DNA of 64,000 nucleotides from Escherichia coli (GCF_048403405.1 NZ_CP183129.1), one strand, 5' to 3'. Shown: positions 14,536 to 62,820, numbered from the stretch's first letter. Made by a program: numbers and translations. Notes: generated by a model from the sequence alone, not told the origin.

Positions 14536-15711
14536 TTACAGCTTGTTGTAAACACGCGCTAAACGGCCGTGGCCTTTGACAGTCACCGGTGATTCGTTGG
14601 CGGCAATAAACGCTGATTCACCCGGTTTAAGCTGTAACTGCTGAGAACCTTTCCACAGCGTTGCATCGCCTTCGACGCAGAACAAAATGGCGGCACTCTG
14701 CTGGCTGATGGTGGTTTCTTTATCACTAAGGTCATGCAGCGAGAAGGCAAAATCATCCACAGGAATCGGGAAGTCCAGTTCTGCACCTTGTTTCACCGGC
14801 TGGGTCAACAACTGGTTAGCCGGTTTGGCTTCGAACTTCACATTGGCAACCAGTTCCGGAATATCAATGTATTTAGGCGTCAGACCCGCACGCAGCACGT
14901 TATCGGAGTTCGCCATCACTTCCAGCGCCACGCCTTGCAGGTAAGCGTGCGGTGTTTCAGCGAACAGGAACATCGCTTCGCCAGGATTCAATTTCACCAC
15001 ATTCAGCAACAGCGGGGAGAACAGACCGCTGTCATCCGGGTAAAATTCAGAAATTAAACGAATTGTTTGCCACGGTTCACCCTGCTGGCTGTCAAGGGCC
15101 GATTTTAAAATCGCCAGCGCGCGGGATTTTTCTTCACCCTGCATATTCAACAGGCTGGCGAACAGTTCGCTTAAACGTTCGGCATCAGGCTGTTGTAAAA
15201 AGTGAGCAATCGCCGGATGTGCACCTGCGACCGGCTGGAGCAGGGAGACAATCTCGGAAAACTCACGAAACGCGTTCATCGCAAGGAAAGGCGTCAGCGC
15301 AAAAACCAGCTCCGGCTTGTGGTTAGGATCTTTATAGTTACGCTCGGCGGCATCCAACGGAATACCTGCGGCATTTTCTTTGGCAAAACCGATTTCAGAA
15401 TTGCGTTTGTTTGGATGAACCTGAATGGAGAGCGGCTGTGCTGCGCATAATACTTTGAACAGGAAAGGCAGTTCGCCAAAGCGTTTGGCAACGGCCTCTC
15501 CGAGCAGAGTCGATTTATCACTCTCAATCACATCACGCAGTGAAACGATATCTCCGGCGGCATTCTGCACTCGTGAACTGCTTTTCGGATGTGCGCCCAT
15601 CCACAGCTCGGCCATCGGCTGGCTGGACGGATTTTCCATACCATAAAGTTCAGTCAACGCCGTTTTGCTGCCCCAGGCATAGTTTTGCACTGAGTTAATG
15701 AGTTTTTGCAT
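14536..15711 (-). CDS. manA: mannose-6-phosphate isomerase
   Basis: Supplied ORF 14536..15789 has a 26-codon extension; recalled 391-aa ManA starts at MQKLINSVQNYAWGSK (cat at 15709..15711). Confidence 0.95.
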   Translation of the reverse strand: MQKLINSVQNYAWGSKTALTELYGMENPSSQPMAELWMGAHPKSSSRVQNAAGDIVSLRDVIESDKSTLLGEAVAKRFGELPFLFKVLCAAQPLSIQVHPNKRNSEIGFAKENAAGIPLDAAERNYKDPNHKPELVFALTPFLAMNAFREFSEIVSLLQPVAGAHPAIAHFLQQPDAERLSELFASLLNMQGEEKSRALAILKSALDSQQGEPWQTIRLISEFYPDDSGLFSPLLLNVVKLNPGEAMFLFAETPHAYLQGVALEVMANSDNVLRAGLTPKYIDIPELVANVKFEAKPANQLLTQPVKQGAELDFPIPVDDFAFSLHDLSDKETTISQQSAAILFCVEGDATLWKGSQQLQLKPGESAFIAANESPVTVKGHGRLARVYNKL

Positions 15712-15909: not shown

Positions 15910-17556
15910 ATGTCAAACAAACCCTTTCATTATCAGGCTCCTTTTCCACTCAAAAAAGATGATACTGAGTATTACCTGCTAACCAGCGAACACGTTAGCG
16001 TATCTGAATTTGAAGGGCAGGAGATTTTGAAAGTCGCACCCGAAGCGTTAACTTTGTTGGCGCGTCAGGCGTTTCATGATGCGTCATTTATGCTGCGTCC
16101 GGCTCACCAACAACAGGTGGCCGACATTCTGCGTGACCCGGAAGCCAGCGAAAATGATAAATATGTGGCGCTGCAATTCCTGCGCAACTCCGACATCGCC
16201 GCAAAAGGCGTTCTGCCAACCTGTCAGGATACCGGCACCGCGATTATTGTTGGTAAAAAAGGGCAGCGTGTATGGACCGGTGGCGGTGATGAAGCGGCGC
16301 TGGCACGCGGTGTCTATAACACTTATATCGAAGATAATCTGCGCTACTCGCAAAACGCGCCGCTGGATATGTATAAAGAGGTGAATACCGGCACCAATCT
16401 ACCAGCGCAGATCGATCTTTATGCCGTTGATGGCGACGAGTACAAATTCCTCTGTATCGCCAAAGGTGGCGGTTCGGCAAACAAGACGTATCTCTATCAG
16501 GAAACCAAAGCGTTACTGACGCCGGGGAAACTGAAAAATTACCTGGTTGAGAAGATGCGCACGCTGGGTACGGCGGCCTGTCCTCCGTATCATATTGCGT
16601 TCGTTATTGGTGGAACTTCTGCAGAAACGAACCTTAAAACGGTGAAACTGGCTTCCGCTAAATACTATGATGAACTGCCAACGGAAGGGAATGAGCACGG
16701 ACAGGCGTTCCGCGATGTGGAACTGGAAAAAGAATTGCTGATCGAAGCGCAAAATCTTGGTCTGGGTGCGCAGTTTGGCGGTAAATACTTCGCTCACGAC
16801 ATCCGCGTGATTCGCCTGCCACGTCACGGCGCATCCTGCCCGGTCGGTATGGGCGTCTCCTGTTCTGCTGACCGTAATATCAAAGCAAAGATCAACCGTC
16901 AGGGGATTTGGATCGAAAAACTGGAACATAATCCAGGCAAATATATCCCGGAAGAGCTGCGCAAAGCGGGAGAAGGCGAAGCGGTGCGCGTTGACCTTAA
17001 CCGTCCGATGAAAGAGATCCTCGCACAGTTGTCGCAGTATCCCGTTTCTACACGCTTATCGCTGAATGGCACGATTATCGTTGGTCGTGATATTGCTCAC
17101 GCCAAACTGAAAGAGCGGATGGATAACGGCGAAGGGCTGCCGCAGTATATTAAAGATCATCCGATTTACTACGCGGGTCCGGCCAAAACGCCGGAAGGTT
17201 ATGCCTCCGGTTCTCTTGGCCCAACGACCGCCGGACGGATGGATTCTTATGTCGATCAACTGCAAGCGCAGGGCGGAAGTATGATCATGCTGGCGAAAGG
17301 CAACCGCAGCCAGCAGGTGACGGATGCCTGTAAAAAACACGGCGGTTTCTACCTCGGTAGTATCGGTGGTCCGGCAGCTGTATTGGCGCAGGGAAGTATT
17401 AAGAGCCTGGAATGTGTTGAATATCCGGAACTGGGAATGGAAGCCATCTGGAAAATTGAAGTGGAAGATTTCCCGGCATTTATCCTTGTGGATGATAAAG
17501 GAAATGACTTCTTCCAGCAGATACAACTCACACAGTGCACCCGCTGTGTGAAATAA
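15910..17556 (+). CDS. fumA: class I fumarate hydratase (Fe-S, aerobic)
   Basis: 548-aa translation recognised as FumA. Confidence 0.95.
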
Positions 17557-58767: not shown

Positions 58768-59713
58768 ACGCCCACTGGTTATAAACACGCAGCTGGCAAT
58801 GAAAATCGGCTTAAACGAAGCCATTGTTTTGCAACAACTGCACTACTGGTTGAGAGATACCAACTCCGGTATGGAATGTGATGGTGTTCGCTGGATTTAT
58901 AACACAACGGAACAATGGCTGGAACAGTTCCCATTCTGGTCAGAGTCAACGTTAAAGCGCGCGTTTGCAAGTCTGAAAACGCTGGGGCTTTTGCGTTGTG
59001 AAAAGCTCAATAAATCAAAGCGCGATATGACCAATTTCTACACGATCAACTATGGGAGCGAGCTTTTAGATGGTGGCAAATTGAACGAATCCATCGGTTC
59101 AAAATGCGCCGCTCCATCAGGTCAAAATGACACGATGGAAGAGGTCAAAATGAAACGCTCCATTGGTTCAAAACGACCCAATGTCATCGGGTCAAAATGG
59201 CCTGATGATCTTACAGAGAATACAACAGAGATTACTACAGAGAATAAAAACACTTTTCGTCCGGAAGCTTCGCAACCGGACCCGCAGACGACTGAACAGG
59301 ATTTTTTAACCCGGAACCCCGACGCGGTTGTGTTTAGTGTGAAAAAACGCCAGTGGGGTAGCAGGGAGGATTTGGCGTGTGCGCAGTGGATTTGGGGGCG
59401 GATCGTGAACCTTTACGAACAGGCTGCCAGCGACGATGGAGAGATCATGCGACCAAAAGAGCCTAACTGGACAGCCTGGGCCAATGACGTGCGCACAATG
59501 CGGATGCTGGATGGCAGAAGCCACAGACAAATTTGCGAAATGTTTGGTCGGGTACAGCGGGATCCATTCTGGGTAAAAAACATCATGAGCCCGTCAAAAC
59601 TCCGCGAAAAATGGGACGAACTGGTCATCCGCCTGGGACGTTCACCTGTACAGCGTTGTGTTAATCATATTTCTGAACCGGATACAGAAATTCCGCCTGG
59701 TTTCAGGGGATAA
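58748..59713 (+). CDS. phage replication initiator / replisome organiser (lambda O-like)
   Basis: N-terminal wHTH-like segment (LAMKIGLNEAIVLQQLHYWL) typical of phage replisome-organiser N-domains; the gene contains an iteron array followed by an AT-rich tract; the protein has the corresponding IGSK peptide repeats. Start codon uncertain (58694 or 58748). Confidence 0.7.
   Translation: MSLLFAERPLVINTQLAMKIGLNEAIVLQQLHYWLRDTNSGMECDGVRWIYNTTEQWLEQFPFWSESTLKRAFASLKTLGLLRCEKLNKSKRDMTNFYTINYGSELLDGGKLNESIGSKCAAPSGQNDTMEEVKMKRSIGSKRPNVIGSKWPDDLTENTTEITTENKNTFRPEASQPDPQTTEQDFLTRNPDAVVFSVKKRQWGSREDLACAQWIWGRIVNLYEQAASDDGEIMRPKEPNWTAWANDVRTMRMLDGRSHRQICEMFGRVQRDPFWVKNIMSPSKLREKWDELVIRLGRSPVQRCVNHISEPDTEIPPGFRG
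59093..59200. repeat. origin-like iteron array inside the O-like gene
   Basis: Five direct repeats of (A/T)TCNGGT(T)CAAAA(T/C)G spaced 21-25 bp apart (about 59096, 59120, 59144, 59165, 59190), followed by an AT-rich stretch (about 59200..59260). Confidence 0.65.
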
Positions 59714-59753
59714 GTGTTGATTTCAGGTCATGAGATAATTTTAAGGGGGACTT

Positions 59754-60155
59754 GTGGCAAAAGTTTTTACACAAGAAGAGCGGGAAAAAATTAAAGGGCA
59801 GGTTGTTGAACTCGTACGCCGGAGTGGGCGTGAGACGTTACGGCAACTGGAAGTCAAGACAGGTGCGACAAGATATCTGATGAGCGTTCTCGCAAGAGAG
59901 CTGGTTGCCAGCGGCGATGTATACAACTCTGGTTACGGGTTATTCCCGTCTGAACAGGCGCGTAAGGACTGGCAAAATGCCCGTAAAAAGCTCTCAAGGG
60001 CAAAGCTGAAGAAACCATCTGCGGTTGATCCGGACCTTATCTGGTCATTACCTGACGGAGAAATACGTCGCTACGACAGGCGTCAGAACATAATCTGCCG
60101 CGAGTGCCGGAAGAGTGAAGTTATGCAGCGCATACTGGCATTTTATCAGGGATAA
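59754..60155 (+). CDS. hypothetical prophage protein
   Basis: 133-aa ORF with GTG start and strong AAGGGGGA RBS; basic, contains a CxxC pair (CRECRK); function unknown. Confidence 0.55.
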   Translation: MAKVFTQEEREKIKGQVVELVRRSGRETLRQLEVKTGATRYLMSVLARELVASGDVYNSGYGLFPSEQARKDWQNARKKLSRAKLKKPSAVDPDLIWSLPDGEIRRYDRRQNIICRECRKSEVMQRILAFYQG

Positions 60156-60688
60156 TGTTAGGTATTTTAGACGTTACTAGATTAAAAAGCATTAGTTCAG
60201 GAGTGAATTGACATTCTCATTTTTCATGGCACAGGGTAGATCTGGCGTGGTTGTCCGCTTTGTGCCAACAGCGGACGTTACTAACGAAACTGTGAGTTAA
60301 AAACGGGAGCTGGTCACCTCCATCCCGCGAAATGGAATTCAAAAATGCCCTCATGTACGGTACTTCTAGTCTGATGTGAGCATTTTCGTGGATTTTTTCG
60401 AGCCACTCCAACGAATGATTACATTCAGTTTCGGGCACTAAAACGTCATAAATCCGCAAGTTGAGGAGTAGCGATCAGCCAATTGGTTAAAAAACAGCTT
60501 TAATTCCCTTTTTCAAGCAGGCTCCTTGTCGCACGTCTGGTGCATCCAATTCATTTCAGTTACCCTGATGCCATACTGGCACGGACTAGCTCTCTTAATT
60601 GGCGCTGGTTTGTTAACCTTGTCCGCTGTCGGGTCTTTGTAAGTTGTAATTCCTAAACTAGCATAATTTTATTATAAGGCCTCTTACT

Positions 60689-61714
60689 ATGCACATTTTA
60701 TCTGTTTCAAAAAAGGAAGTTGGAAGAGCTGGGGATAGATTAGTTTCTCAGTTTGGTACAGGTGAAAAATATAAAGAGGAAGATGTACAAATTCTTCATG
60801 AGTGGAGGATGTTGCATTTATATCCTTTAAGTAAAATACAATTTTATATGGAAAGAGAGGCTATTTCCTTAAACAAAAATGCGTTACTATCCTCTAGAAT
60901 TAAGAGGATGCCTTCCATTGTTACTAAGCTTTCTAGATTTCCTGATATGAAGTTAAATAAGATGCAGGATCTTGGTGGGTGCCGGGCTATTTTAAATAAT
61001 CTGGATCAAGTGTATGATTTAGTTAATAAAATAAAATCATCTAAATTCTCACATGAACTAGTTAGAATGGATGATTACATGATAGACGTGAAAGATTCTG
61101 GTTATAGAAGCTTTCATATGGTCTATTCATTCCAAAATAAAAAATTTCCATCTTTAAATGGGTTGCGCATTGAAATGCAAATAAGAACAGCTATTCAACA
61201 TAGCTGGGCTACAGCAGTTGAAATGGTTGGTTTGTTTCGAAAGGAATCATTGAAATCTGGTTTTGGTGATGCAAGATGGCTTAGGTTTTTTGAATTGGTA
61301 TCAGAGCTTTTTTATAAACTTGAGTATGAAAAAGAACCATCTGGGAGTTATATAAAAATATCAGAAGAATTAAGTTATTTATCCGTCGAGTTGAATGTTT
61401 TCGATATATTAGCTGCTTACAATGCCGTAGTTAGCCATATTGAGGGTAGCAAAAAATATGATAAAGGACTTTGCATAATTGTTGTTGATACCATAAAGCG
61501 GAATATAAATATAAAGAGCTTCGAAAATCACAATCATGCGAAGGCGGCAGAAGCTTATGTCGAGTCTGAAAAATACTGCGCGGAAAATAAAGGCTGTGAA
61601 GTGGCTATGGTTTCTGTTAGTTCAATTAGTGAATTAAAAAATGCATATCCTGCTTACTTTTTAGATACGAAAACTTTTTTAAATTATCTCAGTAGGTATG
61701 TTTTTATAAAATAA
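60689..61714 (+). CDS. RelA/SpoT-domain nucleotide pyrophosphokinase (toxSAS-like; candidate fused CapRel-type toxin-antitoxin defence protein)
   Basis: 341-aa protein with the four synthetase motifs in order: RIKRMPSIVTK, DLGGCRAIL, YRSFHMVY, EMQIRTAIQHSWATAVE. No HD hydrolase, TGS or ACT domains; about 130 C-terminal residues unassigned. The gene is markedly AT-rich compared with its flanks. Confidence 0.8.
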   Translation: MHILSVSKKEVGRAGDRLVSQFGTGEKYKEEDVQILHEWRMLHLYPLSKIQFYMEREAISLNKNALLSSRIKRMPSIVTKLSRFPDMKLNKMQDLGGCRAILNNLDQVYDLVNKIKSSKFSHELVRMDDYMIDVKDSGYRSFHMVYSFQNKKFPSLNGLRIEMQIRTAIQHSWATAVEMVGLFRKESLKSGFGDARWLRFFELVSELFYKLEYEKEPSGSYIKISEELSYLSVELNVFDILAAYNAVVSHIEGSKKYDKGLCIIVVDTIKRNINIKSFENHNHAKAAEAYVESEKYCAENKGCEVAMVSVSSISELKNAYPAYFLDTKTFLNYLSRYVFIK

Positions 61715-62448
61715 AAAATGTTATCTGGAGTGGTCTGAATTCTACTAACTTAGTTTTTTCAGACCGCTTCTGACCACAATGGCCTGTGAGGTTCTGCTGC
61801 TAGTCAACATAAAATAACAAAGCCGGCAGGTGGTGGTTGTTGTAAAGTTATTCAATGACATTCATGGAGGCTTAAGCGAATTATTTGTCCCTGGTCGGTA
61901 TGGTGGCAACAGCTTGTTGCGAGAATTTGGCTAATTTGGACTGACTTCCGCTCCTTGCTCAAAGCGGACTAGAAGGTTAGCTTGTGTCGGACTTTGCGTA
62001 TTAAAAGAAGTGCTGGTGGTGACTAGTGGTTGAGCCCCATTTCCACAGAAAAAATCAGAGAAACTATACCCAATAGTTGTATTGAATCACTGACGAGACA
62101 GCCTCATATTCATCAGGACTGGTGTACGTCCAATACAGGAGGTTGTGGTGCTGGTTCTCAAATGTGCGCTGGCTATTACGGCTGTAATGGCGATTTATTG
62201 TCTTGCTATTGTTCTTATGGATCGCCTTTCTGACTGATTTCATATTGGCGAGGTAAAGGTAGTTAAGTAGAATGGCTGCGGGTGCTTGAGGCTATCTGCC
62301 TCGGGCATGAACACCAAAGGCAGATAGAGAAAAGCCCCAGTTAACATTACGCGTCCTGCAAGACGCTTAACATTAATCTGAGGCCAATTTCATGCTAGAC
62401 ACATGTAGGTTAGCCTCTTACGTGCCGGAAGGCAAGGAGAAGCAGGCT

Positions 62449-62604
62449 ATGAAGCAGCAAAAGGCGATGTTAATCGCCCTGATCGTCATCTGTTTAACCG
62501 TCATAGTGACGGCACTGGTAACGAGGAAAGACCTCTGCGAGGTACGAATCCGAACCGGCCAGACGGAGGTCGCTGTCTTCACAGCTTACGAACCTGAGGA
62601 GTAA
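62449..62604 (+). CDS. hokD: Hok/Gef-family membrane toxin
   Basis: 51-aa protein MKQQKAMLIALIVICLTVIVTALVTRKDLCEVRIRTGQTEVAVFTAYEPEE, matching my memory of HokD; AAGGAGA RBS; upstream fold-back elements typical of hok mRNAs. No relB/relE ORFs are present upstream. Confidence 0.9.
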   Translation: MKQQKAMLIALIVICLTVIVTALVTRKDLCEVRIRTGQTEVAVFTAYEPEE

Positions 62605-62820
62605 GAGACCCGGCGAGGGAGAAATCCCTCGCCACCTCTGATGTGGCAGGCATCCTCAACGCACCCGCACTTAACCCGCTTCGGCGGGTTTTTGTTTTTA
62701 TTTTCAACGCGTTTGAAGTTCTGGACGGTGCCGGAATAGAATCAAAAATACTTAAGTAGCGCGCAGGGATAAGAGGGATGGTCCCTTAAAGGGGAGAGCT
62801 AATTATCCGGAAGAATTCTG

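What the first reader, a model, noticed from the sequence alone, without database searches (positions are those of the whole stretch)
60156..60688. About 530-bp non-coding leader upstream of the RelA/SpoT gene with only TTG-initiated or very small ORFs
No credible ATG-initiated ORF of at least 60 aa occupies this interval; the supplied minus-strand ORF 60217..60459 starts with TTG. By hand I found a 24-codon plus-strand ORF (MPYWHGLALLIGAGLLTLSAVGSL, about 60568..60642) encoding a hydrophobic peptide shortly before the toxSAS start. A long leader before a toxin gene could hold a promoter, an RNA element, or a small antitoxin-like peptide.
Basis: inference. Interest (0 to 1): 0.35.

Follow-up and report, generated by a model that had tools for sequence, protein, structure and literature searches.

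The report
Junction DNA before a phage-defence gene
The 530 bases in front of this toxin-like gene code for nothing: they are the seam where a swappable anti-phage gene cassette, marked by a short hairpin, is joined to a prophage, and only the last ~50 bases look like the gene's own promoter.

Summary
In detail: 60156-60688 has no credible gene. The 24-codon hydrophobic ORF (60568-60642) is broken in all three other versions of this DNA (start codon lost, +2 bp, +17 bp). The TTG minus-strand ORF shows no coding selection (dN/dS 0.73, like the other frames). No antitoxin is needed, because the gene at 60689-61714 is a full-length fused CapRel homologue.

The interval is a mosaic:
- 60156-60252 is the tail of a Qin/mEp460-like prophage backbone, present in about 2,200 of 5,426 E. 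coli genomes.
- 60253-60276 is a hairpin, GTCCGCTTTGTGCCAACAGCGGAC, marking the left edge of a 1.7-kb cassette.
- A sister hairpin closes the cassette at 61946-61969.
- 60277-60316 is a box shared with other cassettes.
- About 320 bp has no relatives elsewhere.
- A plausible sigma-70 promoter and ribosome-binding site lie at 60637-60679.

The same cassette, starting at the same hairpin, sits in a P2-like phage, a Raoultella plasmid and metagenomic contigs. Hairpin pairs of this kind bracket at least 43 different cargos, many of them known defence genes, including Z/fun in phage P2. Cargo-linked and backbone-linked bases change over at the centre of the loop. I found no conserved RNA structure. 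The leader is ordinary; the hairpin-bounded slot is the interesting part.

The parts
59754..60155 (+). DUF977 (LygF-like) gene, the last backbone gene before the variable slot
   Evidence: Pfam DUF977 E 3.8e-29. Annotated as DUF977 in RefSeq copies.
60156..60252 (.). Prophage backbone tail. It is non-coding and includes the box TGGCACAGGG (60227-60236), which is complementary to the loop of the following hairpin.
   Evidence: Matches in 2,221 of 5,426 complete E. coli genomes cover only bases 1-~126 of the interval. The sequence is identical in prophages carrying other cargo. The same box precedes the hairpin in phage P2.
60253..60276 (.). L-type boundary hairpin GTCCGCTTTGTGCCAACAGCGGAC, the left edge of the cassette slot
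   Evidence: Homology to the Raoultella plasmid, L022 and L023/24 starts here. Backbones with other cargo diverge here. The arm pattern occurs twice in 64 kb, against 0.02 expected. The hairpin is in at least 120 viral contigs. Loop positions 7-9 follow the backbone and positions 16-17 follow the cargo.
60277..60316 (+). Conserved cassette 5' box GTTACTAACGAAACTGTGAGTTAAAAACGGGAGCTGGTCA
   Evidence: 88% identical in IncN Klebsiella plasmids. About 18 of 101 distinct cargos carry a box of the same geometry, RTTRCT..TGTTAAT..GGAGCAGGTCA. Divergence between cassette versions is 1-2 differences in 68 nt in comparisons among window, L003 and L022 (6-8 of 68 against L023).
60317..60636 (.). Cassette-specific non-coding DNA with no relatives outside this cassette. 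It contains the two pseudo-ORFs (minus 60217-60459; plus 60568-60642) and a half-hairpin GTCCGCT at 60621-60627.
   Evidence: No DNA homologue in E. coli genomes, phages or plasmids beyond the cassette itself. Only two 'homologous proteins' among 5.8 billion, both from the same cassette. dN/dS of 0.73 equals that of the other frames. Indels break the small ORF. 60621-60632 is complementary to 60265-60276.
60637..60688 (+). Probable promoter and ribosome-binding site of the CapRel gene: -35 TTGTAA 60637-42, -10 TAGCAT 60659-64, SD AAGG 60676-79
   Evidence: Best sigma-70 score in the interval, 9.2. The elements are conserved in four versions. GC drops from about 0.45 to 0.32 here. One homologue (L020) shares DNA only from about 60654 onward.
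60689..61714 (+). Fused toxSAS (CapRel-like) defence gene, 341 aa
   Evidence: Pfam RelA_SpoT 4e-18. PADLOC PDC-S33 5e-119. PDB 7ZTB/9ERV E 2.6e-34 over residues 6-338. pN 0.007 against pS 0.16 versus the Raoultella copy.
61715..61945 (.). 3' non-coding part of the cassette
   Evidence: Shared with the Raoultella plasmid up to about 61935, at 13% divergence, close to the synonymous rate.
61946..61969 (.). R-type boundary hairpin TTCCGCTCCTTGCTCAAAGCGGAC, the right edge of the slot
   Evidence: All prophage variants share sequence from the right half of this hairpin onward. In R-type hairpins generally, positions 17 and 21 follow the backbone and positions 8-9 do not.

Best explanation
The interval is junction DNA of a phage defence hot spot, not a regulatory leader in its own right. 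In Qin/mEp460-like lambdoid prophages, the space between the DUF977 gene and hokD/sok is a slot whose contents are exchanged between elements.

The slot is bounded by two related 24-nt hairpins with arms GTCCGCT/AGCGGAC. The L-type has loop core GTGCCA and the R-type has loop core TCGCTC. In this window the slot holds a 1.7-kb cassette (60253-61969) whose cargo is a single-protein fused toxin-antitoxin of the CapRel type.

Within the 533-bp interval:
- The first 97 bp are backbone.
- The next 24 bp are the L hairpin, where backbone and cassette are joined.
- The next 40 bp are a box common to many cassettes.
- About 320 bp are untranslated filler, possibly the relic of an earlier cargo.
- The last ~50 bp supply the sigma-70 promoter and ribosome-binding site from which the defence gene is expressed in the lysogen.

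Shown: the mosaic boundaries, the lack of coding constraint, the non-conservation of the small ORF, the fused nature of the toxin, and the generality of the hairpin-bounded slot.

Inferred: the promoter, and the idea that the hairpins are where recombination happens. Whether that recombination is site-specific or depends on short homology is open.
For: Boundaries:
- Homology with a Raoultella IncFII plasmid (93.6%) runs 60252-61935.
- The same leader plus gene follows a fun(Z) cassette in a P2-like contig (L022) and occurs in L023/L024. In each case it begins at the L hairpin.
- Prophages with DUF4209, hypothetical or NUDIX/HAD cargo share the flanks up to and from the hairpins.

Non-coding nature:
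- dN/dS of the minus-strand ORF is 0.73, against 0.45-0.93 in the other frames.
- The small ORF is broken in 3 of 3 other versions.
- There are no protein homologues outside the cassette.

No antitoxin needed:
- The protein aligns over its full length with CapRel-SJ46.
- Other CapRels are expressed from 100-200 bp of native upstream DNA (PMC9712102).

Promoter.

Generality of the slot:
- The L hairpin is in at least 120 viral contigs.
- 62 L...R pairs were found with 43 distinct cargos.
- Cargos hit PD-T7-1, PD-T7-5, Old, DarG, AriA, GajA, HerA, TIR, GmrSD and others.
- Phage P2 has the L hairpin at 15335-15358 and a degenerate R hairpin at 17426-17449 around fun(Z).

Exchange point at the loop centre.
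Against: - The promoter score is one that chance gives about once per kb per strand, and no transcription data were available.
- The 5' 200 bp of the cassette leader diverge 2-3 times less than synonymous sites of the adjacent gene in three of the comparisons (4.3% against 15.7% for window vs the Raoultella plasmid). That could mean an unrecognised function there. It is not so against L023.
- The loop-centre exchange rests on few independent events, with only 10 sequences in informative cargo clusters.
- No L/R hybrid or empty site was found.
- No recombinase was identified.
- In Hyphomicrobium the same hairpin is a dispersed intergenic repeat between ordinary genes. The hairpin is therefore not specific to cassettes.
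Confidence: 0.7

Rival explanations
1. The leader, especially 60277-60460, is a functional RNA: either a long structured 5' UTR or sRNA controlling the toxSAS gene, or an antisense transcript.
For: The 5' 200 bp are 2-3 times more conserved than synonymous sites in three pairwise comparisons. Fold z-scores are -2.0 on the plus strand and -2.2 on the minus strand. A 74-nt stretch (60424-60497) recurs at 80% identity in an unrelated intergenic region of another E. coli.
Against: There is no Rfam match at E<=1. 0 of 101 predicted pairs covary, and the covariation term is unfavourable. The region is not conserved upstream of CapRel homologues at 57-86% identity. The best promoter lies downstream of it. 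With only four close sequences, the power of the covariation test is low.
Confidence: 0.12
2. The filler 60277-60636 is the decayed remnant of an earlier cargo. An L hairpin and 5' box were once followed by a gene, and the AT-rich CapRel unit with its own promoter was later placed behind it. This is compatible with the main explanation.
For: - The box ends in an SD-like GGGAG at the position where other cassettes start their first gene.
- A half-hairpin GTCCGCT at 60621-60627 sits exactly where GC falls from 0.45 to 0.32.
- Open frames without coding constraint persist.
- E. coli A20 shows that cargos do decay to a ~216-bp stub between intact hairpins.
Against: No protein or DNA homologue of the supposed former gene was found in any frame. 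The half-hairpin is only 7-12 nt and could be chance.
Confidence: 0.3
3. The 24-codon hydrophobic ORF (60568-60642) is a type I-toxin-like or antitoxin-like peptide.
For: A weak Ldr_toxin match, E 0.032. The sequence is hydrophobic.
Against: The score is 14.7 bits against a cut-off of 27. There is no Shine-Dalgarno sequence. The start codon is lost in L023/L024 and the frame is shifted in L022 (+2) and the Raoultella plasmid (+17). This segment diverges at about the neutral rate.
Confidence: 0.03
4. The minus-strand ORF 60217-60459 encodes a real 73-93-aa protein transcribed divergently from the toxSAS gene.
For: The frame stays open in all four versions.
Against: - It has a TTG start with no Shine-Dalgarno sequence.
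- 8 of 9 differences against the Raoultella copy change the amino acid.
- dN/dS is 0.73, no lower than in other frames.
- Its C-terminus runs through the hairpin into whatever backbone lies beyond, and differs in each context.
- There is no Pfam or PADLOC family, and no homologue outside the cassette.
Confidence: 0.05

Closest known systems
Phage morons and prophage defence hot spots (P2 Z/fun and tin-old loci, P4 psu-int locus)
   Same: An AT-rich accessory gene with its own promoter sits at a fixed slot between conserved phage genes. The cargo differs between close relatives and is often anti-phage. The P2 Z/fun slot carries the very same L and R hairpins, and one P2-like contig carries this very cassette.
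   Different: This slot is in a lambdoid (Qin/mEp460-like) backbone between DUF977 and hokD. No intrinsic terminator was found for the cassette. None of the four hot-spot papers whose text I searched (PMC9122126; 10.1101/2024.10.15.618418; 10.64898/2026.02.27.708500; PMC13100340) mentions the boundary hairpins. Nilsson et al. 2004 (Mol Biol Evol 21:1) may describe them, but I could not read that paper.
Fused CapRel toxin-antitoxin (CapRel-SJ46, PDB 7ZTB)
   Same: A single protein with an N-terminal RelA/SpoT synthetase and a C-terminal autoinhibitory region. It is prophage-borne and has no separate antitoxin. The alignment is full-length.
   Different: The relationship is distant (phmmer E 2.6e-34), the protein is 341 rather than 373 aa, and it falls in the PADLOC candidate family PDC-S33. 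Neither activity nor trigger was tested.
Integron cassettes and attC sites; Acinetobacter pdif (XerC/D) modules
   Same: Promoter-poor or single-gene modules are bounded by short palindromic sites. They occur in tandem with a composite site between them (R hairpin, 18 nt, L hairpin). The same module appears in unrelated replicons.
   Different: There is no GTTRRRY/RYYYAAC core and no similarity to Xer sites. No integrase or dedicated recombinase is nearby. The two ends are of different types, which suggests exchange by two crossovers rather than insertion of a circle. No empty or hybrid site was seen.
REP/BIME dispersed palindromes
   Same: A short imperfect palindrome found in intergenic DNA. 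In Hyphomicrobium genomes it occurs at high copy number, in ordered clusters of 2-3 hairpins between ordinary genes.
   Different: Its sequence is unrelated to E. coli REP. In enterobacteria it is confined to mobile-element slots, with only two copies in this 64-kb window. No RAYT link was tested.

Membership tests
Fused CapRel-type toxSAS | RelA/SpoT nucleotidyl-transferase (toxSYNTH) domain | tested here: met
   Pfam PF04607 E 4e-18, 66 bits against a cut-off of 27
Fused CapRel-type toxSAS | C-terminal autoinhibitory/sensor region fused in the same polypeptide | tested here: met
   phmmer alignment to 7ZTB/9ERV covers residues 6-338 of 341, including the C-terminal AYPxYF...FLSR motif. This is by sequence only; no structure was predicted.
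Fused CapRel-type toxSAS | No separate cognate antitoxin gene adjacent | tested here: met
   No conserved ORF lies upstream or within the 230 bp downstream.
Fused CapRel-type toxSAS | tRNA pyrophosphorylation and phage-triggered abortive infection | not testable with these tools
   Needs experiment.
Type I toxin (Ldr/Fst-like) small ORF | Family profile match above threshold | tested here: not met
   Ldr_toxin 14.7 bits against a cut-off of 27
Type I toxin (Ldr/Fst-like) small ORF | Reading frame conserved among homologous loci | tested here: not met
   ATG to ACG, +2 bp and +17 bp in the three other versions
Cis-regulatory or small RNA (any Rfam family) | Covariance-model match or covarying structure | tested here: not met
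   No Rfam hit at E<=1 in 60156-60688. 0 of 101 pairs covary. Only four sequences, so low power.
Phage moron | Own promoter, own terminator, and deviant base composition between conserved phage genes | tested here: inconclusive
   GC is 0.29-0.38 against about 0.47 in the flanks. A promoter candidate of modest score was found. No intrinsic terminator was found after the gene.
Integron cassette / attC | R''/R' core sites (RYYYAAC ... GTTRRRY) and an IntI integrase | tested here: not met
   By eye, the bases after the hairpin do not fit GTTRRRY: GTTACTA here, and (G/A)TT plus variable bases elsewhere. No IntI-like gene was noted in the flanking annotation I looked at, but it was not searched for systematically.
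Hairpin-bounded defence slot (as in P2 Z/fun) | L-type hairpin at the left edge and R-type hairpin at the right edge, with cargo replaced exactly between them | tested here: met
REP/BIME-like repeats | High-copy dispersed intergenic palindrome in the host genome; RAYT association | tested here: inconclusive
   High copy in Hyphomicrobium MAGs. Only two copies in this window. RAYT association was not tested.

The most novel reading that the evidence does not exclude
The L- and R-type hairpins would be the crossover sites of an undescribed cassette-exchange mechanism. The sites would be two heterospecific dyad-symmetric sites, each with a central GC. This mechanism would move defence genes between P2-like phages, lambdoid prophages and conjugative plasmids. 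It would use a palindrome family that also exists as a dispersed repeat in distant Proteobacteria. If so, it would supply the missing mechanism for the inter-element sharing of defence genes that recent surveys report without explanation.
Probability: 0.3. Interest if true: 0.75.

Novelty: new member of a known kind. Interest (0 to 1): 0.4.

Why it matters
For the leader itself, little changes. It removes a candidate antitoxin peptide and a candidate riboregulator, and it says that expression most likely comes from a short proximal promoter.

The wider point concerns the seam inside the interval. It is a 24-nt hairpin that, with a sister hairpin, brackets dozens of different anti-phage cargos in unrelated phages and plasmids, and the join falls at the centre of the loop.

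Recent large surveys record that P2 defence genes also occur in other prophages and plasmids, and they remark that homologous recombination cannot easily explain this (10.64898/2026.02.27.708500). A defined pair of boundary sites would make that question experimentally testable. It would also give a simple sequence handle for finding new defence cargo.

Tried and rejected
- **Leader conserved across the CapRel family?** I fetched loci for homologues at 63-86% identity. DNA similarity starts at the start codon; one case reaches 35 bp upstream. Rejected.
- **Remnant of the BrnT/CopG-like pair** that precedes the 84-86% homologues. tblastx found nothing. Rejected.
- **Protein search with the 93-aa minus ORF.** Only two hits in 5.8 billion proteins, both from the same cassette.
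- **Tn3-type inverted repeat, Xer/dif, gix/hix, sigma-54 promoter, and boxA/nut readings of the hairpin region.** I compared these by eye from memory only. None fits, and I do not claim any of them.
- **attC/integron reading.** The core motifs are absent.
- **Search for an empty or hybrid L/R site** with a synthetic junction query in 5,426 E. coli genomes. None was found. The nearest case is a 216-bp stub cargo in strain A20.
- **Exact-match scan of species-representative genomes** with a 34-nt invariant piece of the leader. No hits.
- **Reading the older literature.** Nilsson et al. 2004, Odegrip et al. 2006 and Svab et al. 2013 are not held in the library.
- **Rfam on the Hyphomicrobium hairpin arrays.** Nothing relevant.

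Full report
**Setting.** The end of the window is a lambdoid prophage of the Qin/mEp460 type. It has a repressor, dicC-like cro, ydaT, an O-like replication gene and a DUF977 (LygF-like) gene at 59754-60155. After the interval come a RelA/SpoT-domain gene (60689-61714), hokD with its sok RNA (Rfam RF01794, 117 bits, 62280-62454), rem, ydfU and the Q-like antiterminator. The whole stretch 59700-61800 is 100% identical in 40 of 5,426 complete E. coli genomes, most of them avian or human extra-intestinal isolates.

**The observation.** It is correct. No ATG-initiated ORF of 60 aa or more lies in 60156-60688. The 80-aa minus-strand ORF starts with TTG. The 24-codon ORF is at 60568-60642. Rfam finds nothing at E<=1 in the interval, and the consensus scans find no terminator and no strong promoter.

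**The downstream gene needs no partner.** Its product has:
- a RelA_SpoT domain (Pfam, 4e-18);
- a match to the PADLOC candidate family PDC-S33 (5e-119);
- an alignment from residue 6 to 338 with CapRel-SJ46 (PDB 7ZTB and 9ERV, E 2.6e-34), including the C-terminal part that in CapRel-SJ46 acts as the built-in antitoxin and phage sensor (PMC9712102).

That paper also reports that 100-200 bp of native upstream DNA was enough to express four other CapRels.

**The interval is a mosaic.**
- Searching the interval alone against E. coli genomes gives 2,221 genomes with a match. All but 40 match only the first ~126 bases.
- The remaining 404 bases occur only together with the CapRel gene.
- A Raoultella terrigena IncFII plasmid carries 60252-61935 at 93.6% identity in a completely different neighbourhood, next to pifC.
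- A protein search with the minus-strand ORF returned only two predicted proteins out of 5.8 billion. Both led to further copies of the same cassette. One copy (L022) sits behind a fun(Z) gene in a P2-like contig. Two (L023/L024) sit next to an HTH gene.
- In all four contexts the shared DNA begins at the same 24-nt palindrome, GTCCGCTTTGTGCCAACAGCGGAC (60253-60276).

**Coding tests.** Against the Raoultella copy the CapRel gene has pS 0.157-0.167 and pN 0.007, which is strong purifying selection. In the minus-strand ORF, 8 of 9 differences change the amino acid. Over all pairs of the four versions its dN/dS is 0.73, inside the range of the five other frames (0.45-0.93). Its C-terminus reads through the hairpin into whatever lies beyond, and differs in each context. 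It is not a gene.

The small hydrophobic ORF fails in every other version. The ATG is ACG in L023/L024. L022 has a 2-bp insertion and the Raoultella plasmid a 17-bp insertion, and both shift the frame. Its segment diverges at 8-19%, about the synonymous rate. There is no Shine-Dalgarno sequence, and the Ldr_toxin match is far below threshold.

**RNA tests.**
- CapRel homologues at 57-86% protein identity were fetched with their flanks. Their DNA similarity to the window begins at the start codon, apart from one case that reaches 35 bp upstream. The leader is therefore not a family-wide regulatory element.
- Folding 60253-60640 gives z-scores of -2.0 and -2.2 on the two strands.
- The consensus fold of the four versions has no compensatory change in 101 pairs, and an unfavourable covariation term. 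Four close sequences give little power, so an RNA is not excluded.
- One observation remains in its favour. The first ~200 bp of the cassette leader diverge 2-3 times less than synonymous sites in the comparisons among window, Raoultella and L022, though not against L023.

**Promoter.** A position-weight scan puts the best sigma-70 candidate at -35 TTGTAA (60637-60642), a 16-nt spacer, and -10 TAGCAT (60659-60664), followed by AAGG (60676-60679) nine bases before the ATG. These elements are kept in all four versions; L023 has TAACAT. They sit exactly where GC falls from about 0.45 to 0.32. The score of 9.2 is reached about once per kb per strand by chance, so this is an inference. In one E. 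coli genome (GPEC1258) an IS903B copy interrupts the leader at about 60636.

**The hairpins.**
- A second palindrome with the same arms, TTCCGCTCCTTGCTCAAAGCGGAC, lies at 61946-61969, nine bases beyond the end of the homology with the Raoultella plasmid.
- The arm pattern TCCGCT-N(6-14)-AGCGGA occurs only at these two places in 64 kb, against 0.02 expected.
- Prophages with the same backbone but other cargo share the left flank up to and through the first hairpin, and the right flank from the right half of the second hairpin onward. Examples are a DUF4209 protein in strain 25DN, hypothetical proteins in ECC-1470 and in phage mEp460, and NUDIX and HAD hydrolases in AR_0017.

**Generality.**
- In 62 cases an R-type hairpin, (G/T)TCCGCTnnTCGCTCAnAGC(G/A)GAC, follows 0.45-5.8 kb downstream. 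These enclose 43 distinct cargos with GC of 0.31-0.52.
- The largest protein of each cargo hits, among others, PD-T7-1, PD-T7-5, Old, DarG, AriA, GajA, HerA, NsnA, PD-T4-2, PRTase, TIR, GmrSD and a few IS transposases.
- Upstream contexts fall into a few classes. One is the DUF977 tail seen here. Another is the sequence after tail-fibre assembly gene G of phage P2.
- In P2 itself the L hairpin is at 15335-15358 and a degenerate R hairpin at 17426-17449, enclosing fun(Z). That is the known Z/fun hot spot (10.1101/2024.10.15.618418).
- Where two cargos are in tandem, the junction is a composite of R hairpin, 18 nt and L hairpin, with a constant 42-nt pitch.

**Where the join lies.**
- Among 102 non-redundant L hairpins, loop positions 7-9 agree within clusters that share the upstream backbone (41-44 of 46). 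Positions 16-17 do not (22-28 of 46), but they agree within clusters that share the downstream cargo (9-10 of 10).
- R hairpins show the mirror image. Positions 8-9 do not follow the downstream backbone (15-17 of 32), while positions 17 and 21 do (28-30 of 32).
- The change-over is therefore at the loop centre of both hairpins, around a central GC.
- This is what a site-specific exchange would leave. However, the number of independent events is small, and no recombinase was found.
- No empty or hybrid site was found either. The nearest case, in strain A20, is a 216-bp stub of a known cargo between intact L and R hairpins.
- Because the two ends are of different type, exchange by two crossovers (L with L, R with R) fits better than insertion of a circle.

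**The 5' box.** The 40 bases after the L hairpin (60277-60316) are 88% identical to a sequence in IncN Klebsiella plasmids. They belong to a looser motif, RTTRCT...TGTTAAT...GGAGCAGGTCA, found in fixed register after the hairpin in about 18 of 101 distinct cargos. In some of those the first gene starts just after the GGAG.

Here no gene follows. Together with a half-hairpin at 60621-60627 and the composition break, this suggests that the ~320-bp filler is what remains of an earlier cargo. I found no homologue to prove it.

**A caution on the hairpin.** Besides many Enterobacterales, the same 24-mer occurs in Hyphomicrobium, other Hyphomicrobiales, Paracoccaceae and Nitrosospira assemblies.

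In Hyphomicrobium it is the last member of ordered clusters of two or three hairpins (loops GGGTCA, ACCCCC, GTGCCA; about 45-nt pitch). These are repeated on many contigs between ordinary genes such as rhomboid, cytochrome b561, VIT1, a DinB-type polymerase and AcrB. There it behaves like a REP/BIME-type dispersed palindrome, not like a cassette boundary. Whatever recognises it is probably not phage-specific.

**Literature.** The hot-spot papers I could read name the P2 hot spots and note sharing of defence genes with other prophages and plasmids. None mentions boundary hairpins or a mechanism. The title of Nilsson et al. [quoted passage not shown] The paper is not in the library, so I cannot say whether these are the same repeats.

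**Verdict.** The finding is real as an observation and ordinary as a leader: junction and filler DNA with a probable proximal promoter, no peptide, and no demonstrable RNA element. Its one noteworthy component is the boundary hairpin at 60253-60276.

Noticed in passing
window 62280-62604: A complete hok/sok type I toxin-antitoxin locus lies just after the slot. The sok RNA is Rfam RF01794 at 117 bits, and hokD runs 62449-62604 within the mok-like ORF 62392-62604.
   Followed up: partly
window 62613-62694: A hairpin plus T-run after hokD resembles isrK (Rfam RF01394) at 25.7 bits, E 0.01, below the gathering score of 50. It is probably just the hok terminator.
   Followed up: no
window ~60636 (E. 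coli GPEC1258, NZ_CM142782.1): In one genome an IS903B copy splits the leader at about 60636, right at the predicted -35 element of the CapRel promoter.
   Followed up: no
L163, L167, L169, L187 (Hyphomicrobium MAG contigs): The same 24-nt hairpin is part of ordered clusters of 2-3 hairpins (loops GGGTCA, ACCCCC, GTGCCA) at about 45-nt pitch. The clusters are repeated between ordinary chromosomal genes on many contigs, forming a REP/BIME-like family shared with enterobacterial phages.
   Followed up: partly
window 60227-60236 and L145 (phage P2) 15310-15319: A box TGGCACAG(G/A)G about 17-26 nt upstream of the L hairpin is complementary to the left part of the hairpin loop. In P2, CTCTGTGCCA gives a 10-nt perfect complement. 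The box is present in both lambdoid and P2 backbones.
   Followed up: no
L145 (phage P2) 15326-15334 and 17450-17458; many IMG/VR loci: In the P2-type backbone the slot is additionally flanked by an inverted repeat, AATCTGA(C/A)A ... TGTCAGATT, immediately outside the two hairpins.
   Followed up: no
L009 1656-2382, L010 568-1334, L020 1201-1922: CapRel homologues at 84-86% identity are preceded by a conserved pair of small genes with sub-threshold BrnT-toxin and CopG-antitoxin matches. This is probably an independent type II TA module.
   Followed up: partly
L021 2501-2574 (E. coli GDSC2BY4G, near yecA): A 74-nt piece of the leader (window 60424-60497) recurs at 80% identity in an intergenic region beside a tRNA-fragment att site of another integrated element. 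Its meaning is unknown.
   Followed up: partly
L266 444-714 (E. coli A20): Here the slot holds only a ~216-bp stub, the two ends of a 2.7-kb cargo known from other prophages, between intact L and R hairpins. This shows internal decay of cargo.
   Followed up: partly
L267 2753-4059 (E. coli AR_0017) and L083: Some cargos in the same slot are not obvious defence genes. Examples are a NUDIX hydrolase plus a HAD hydrolase, and several cargos carry IS transposases.
   Followed up: no
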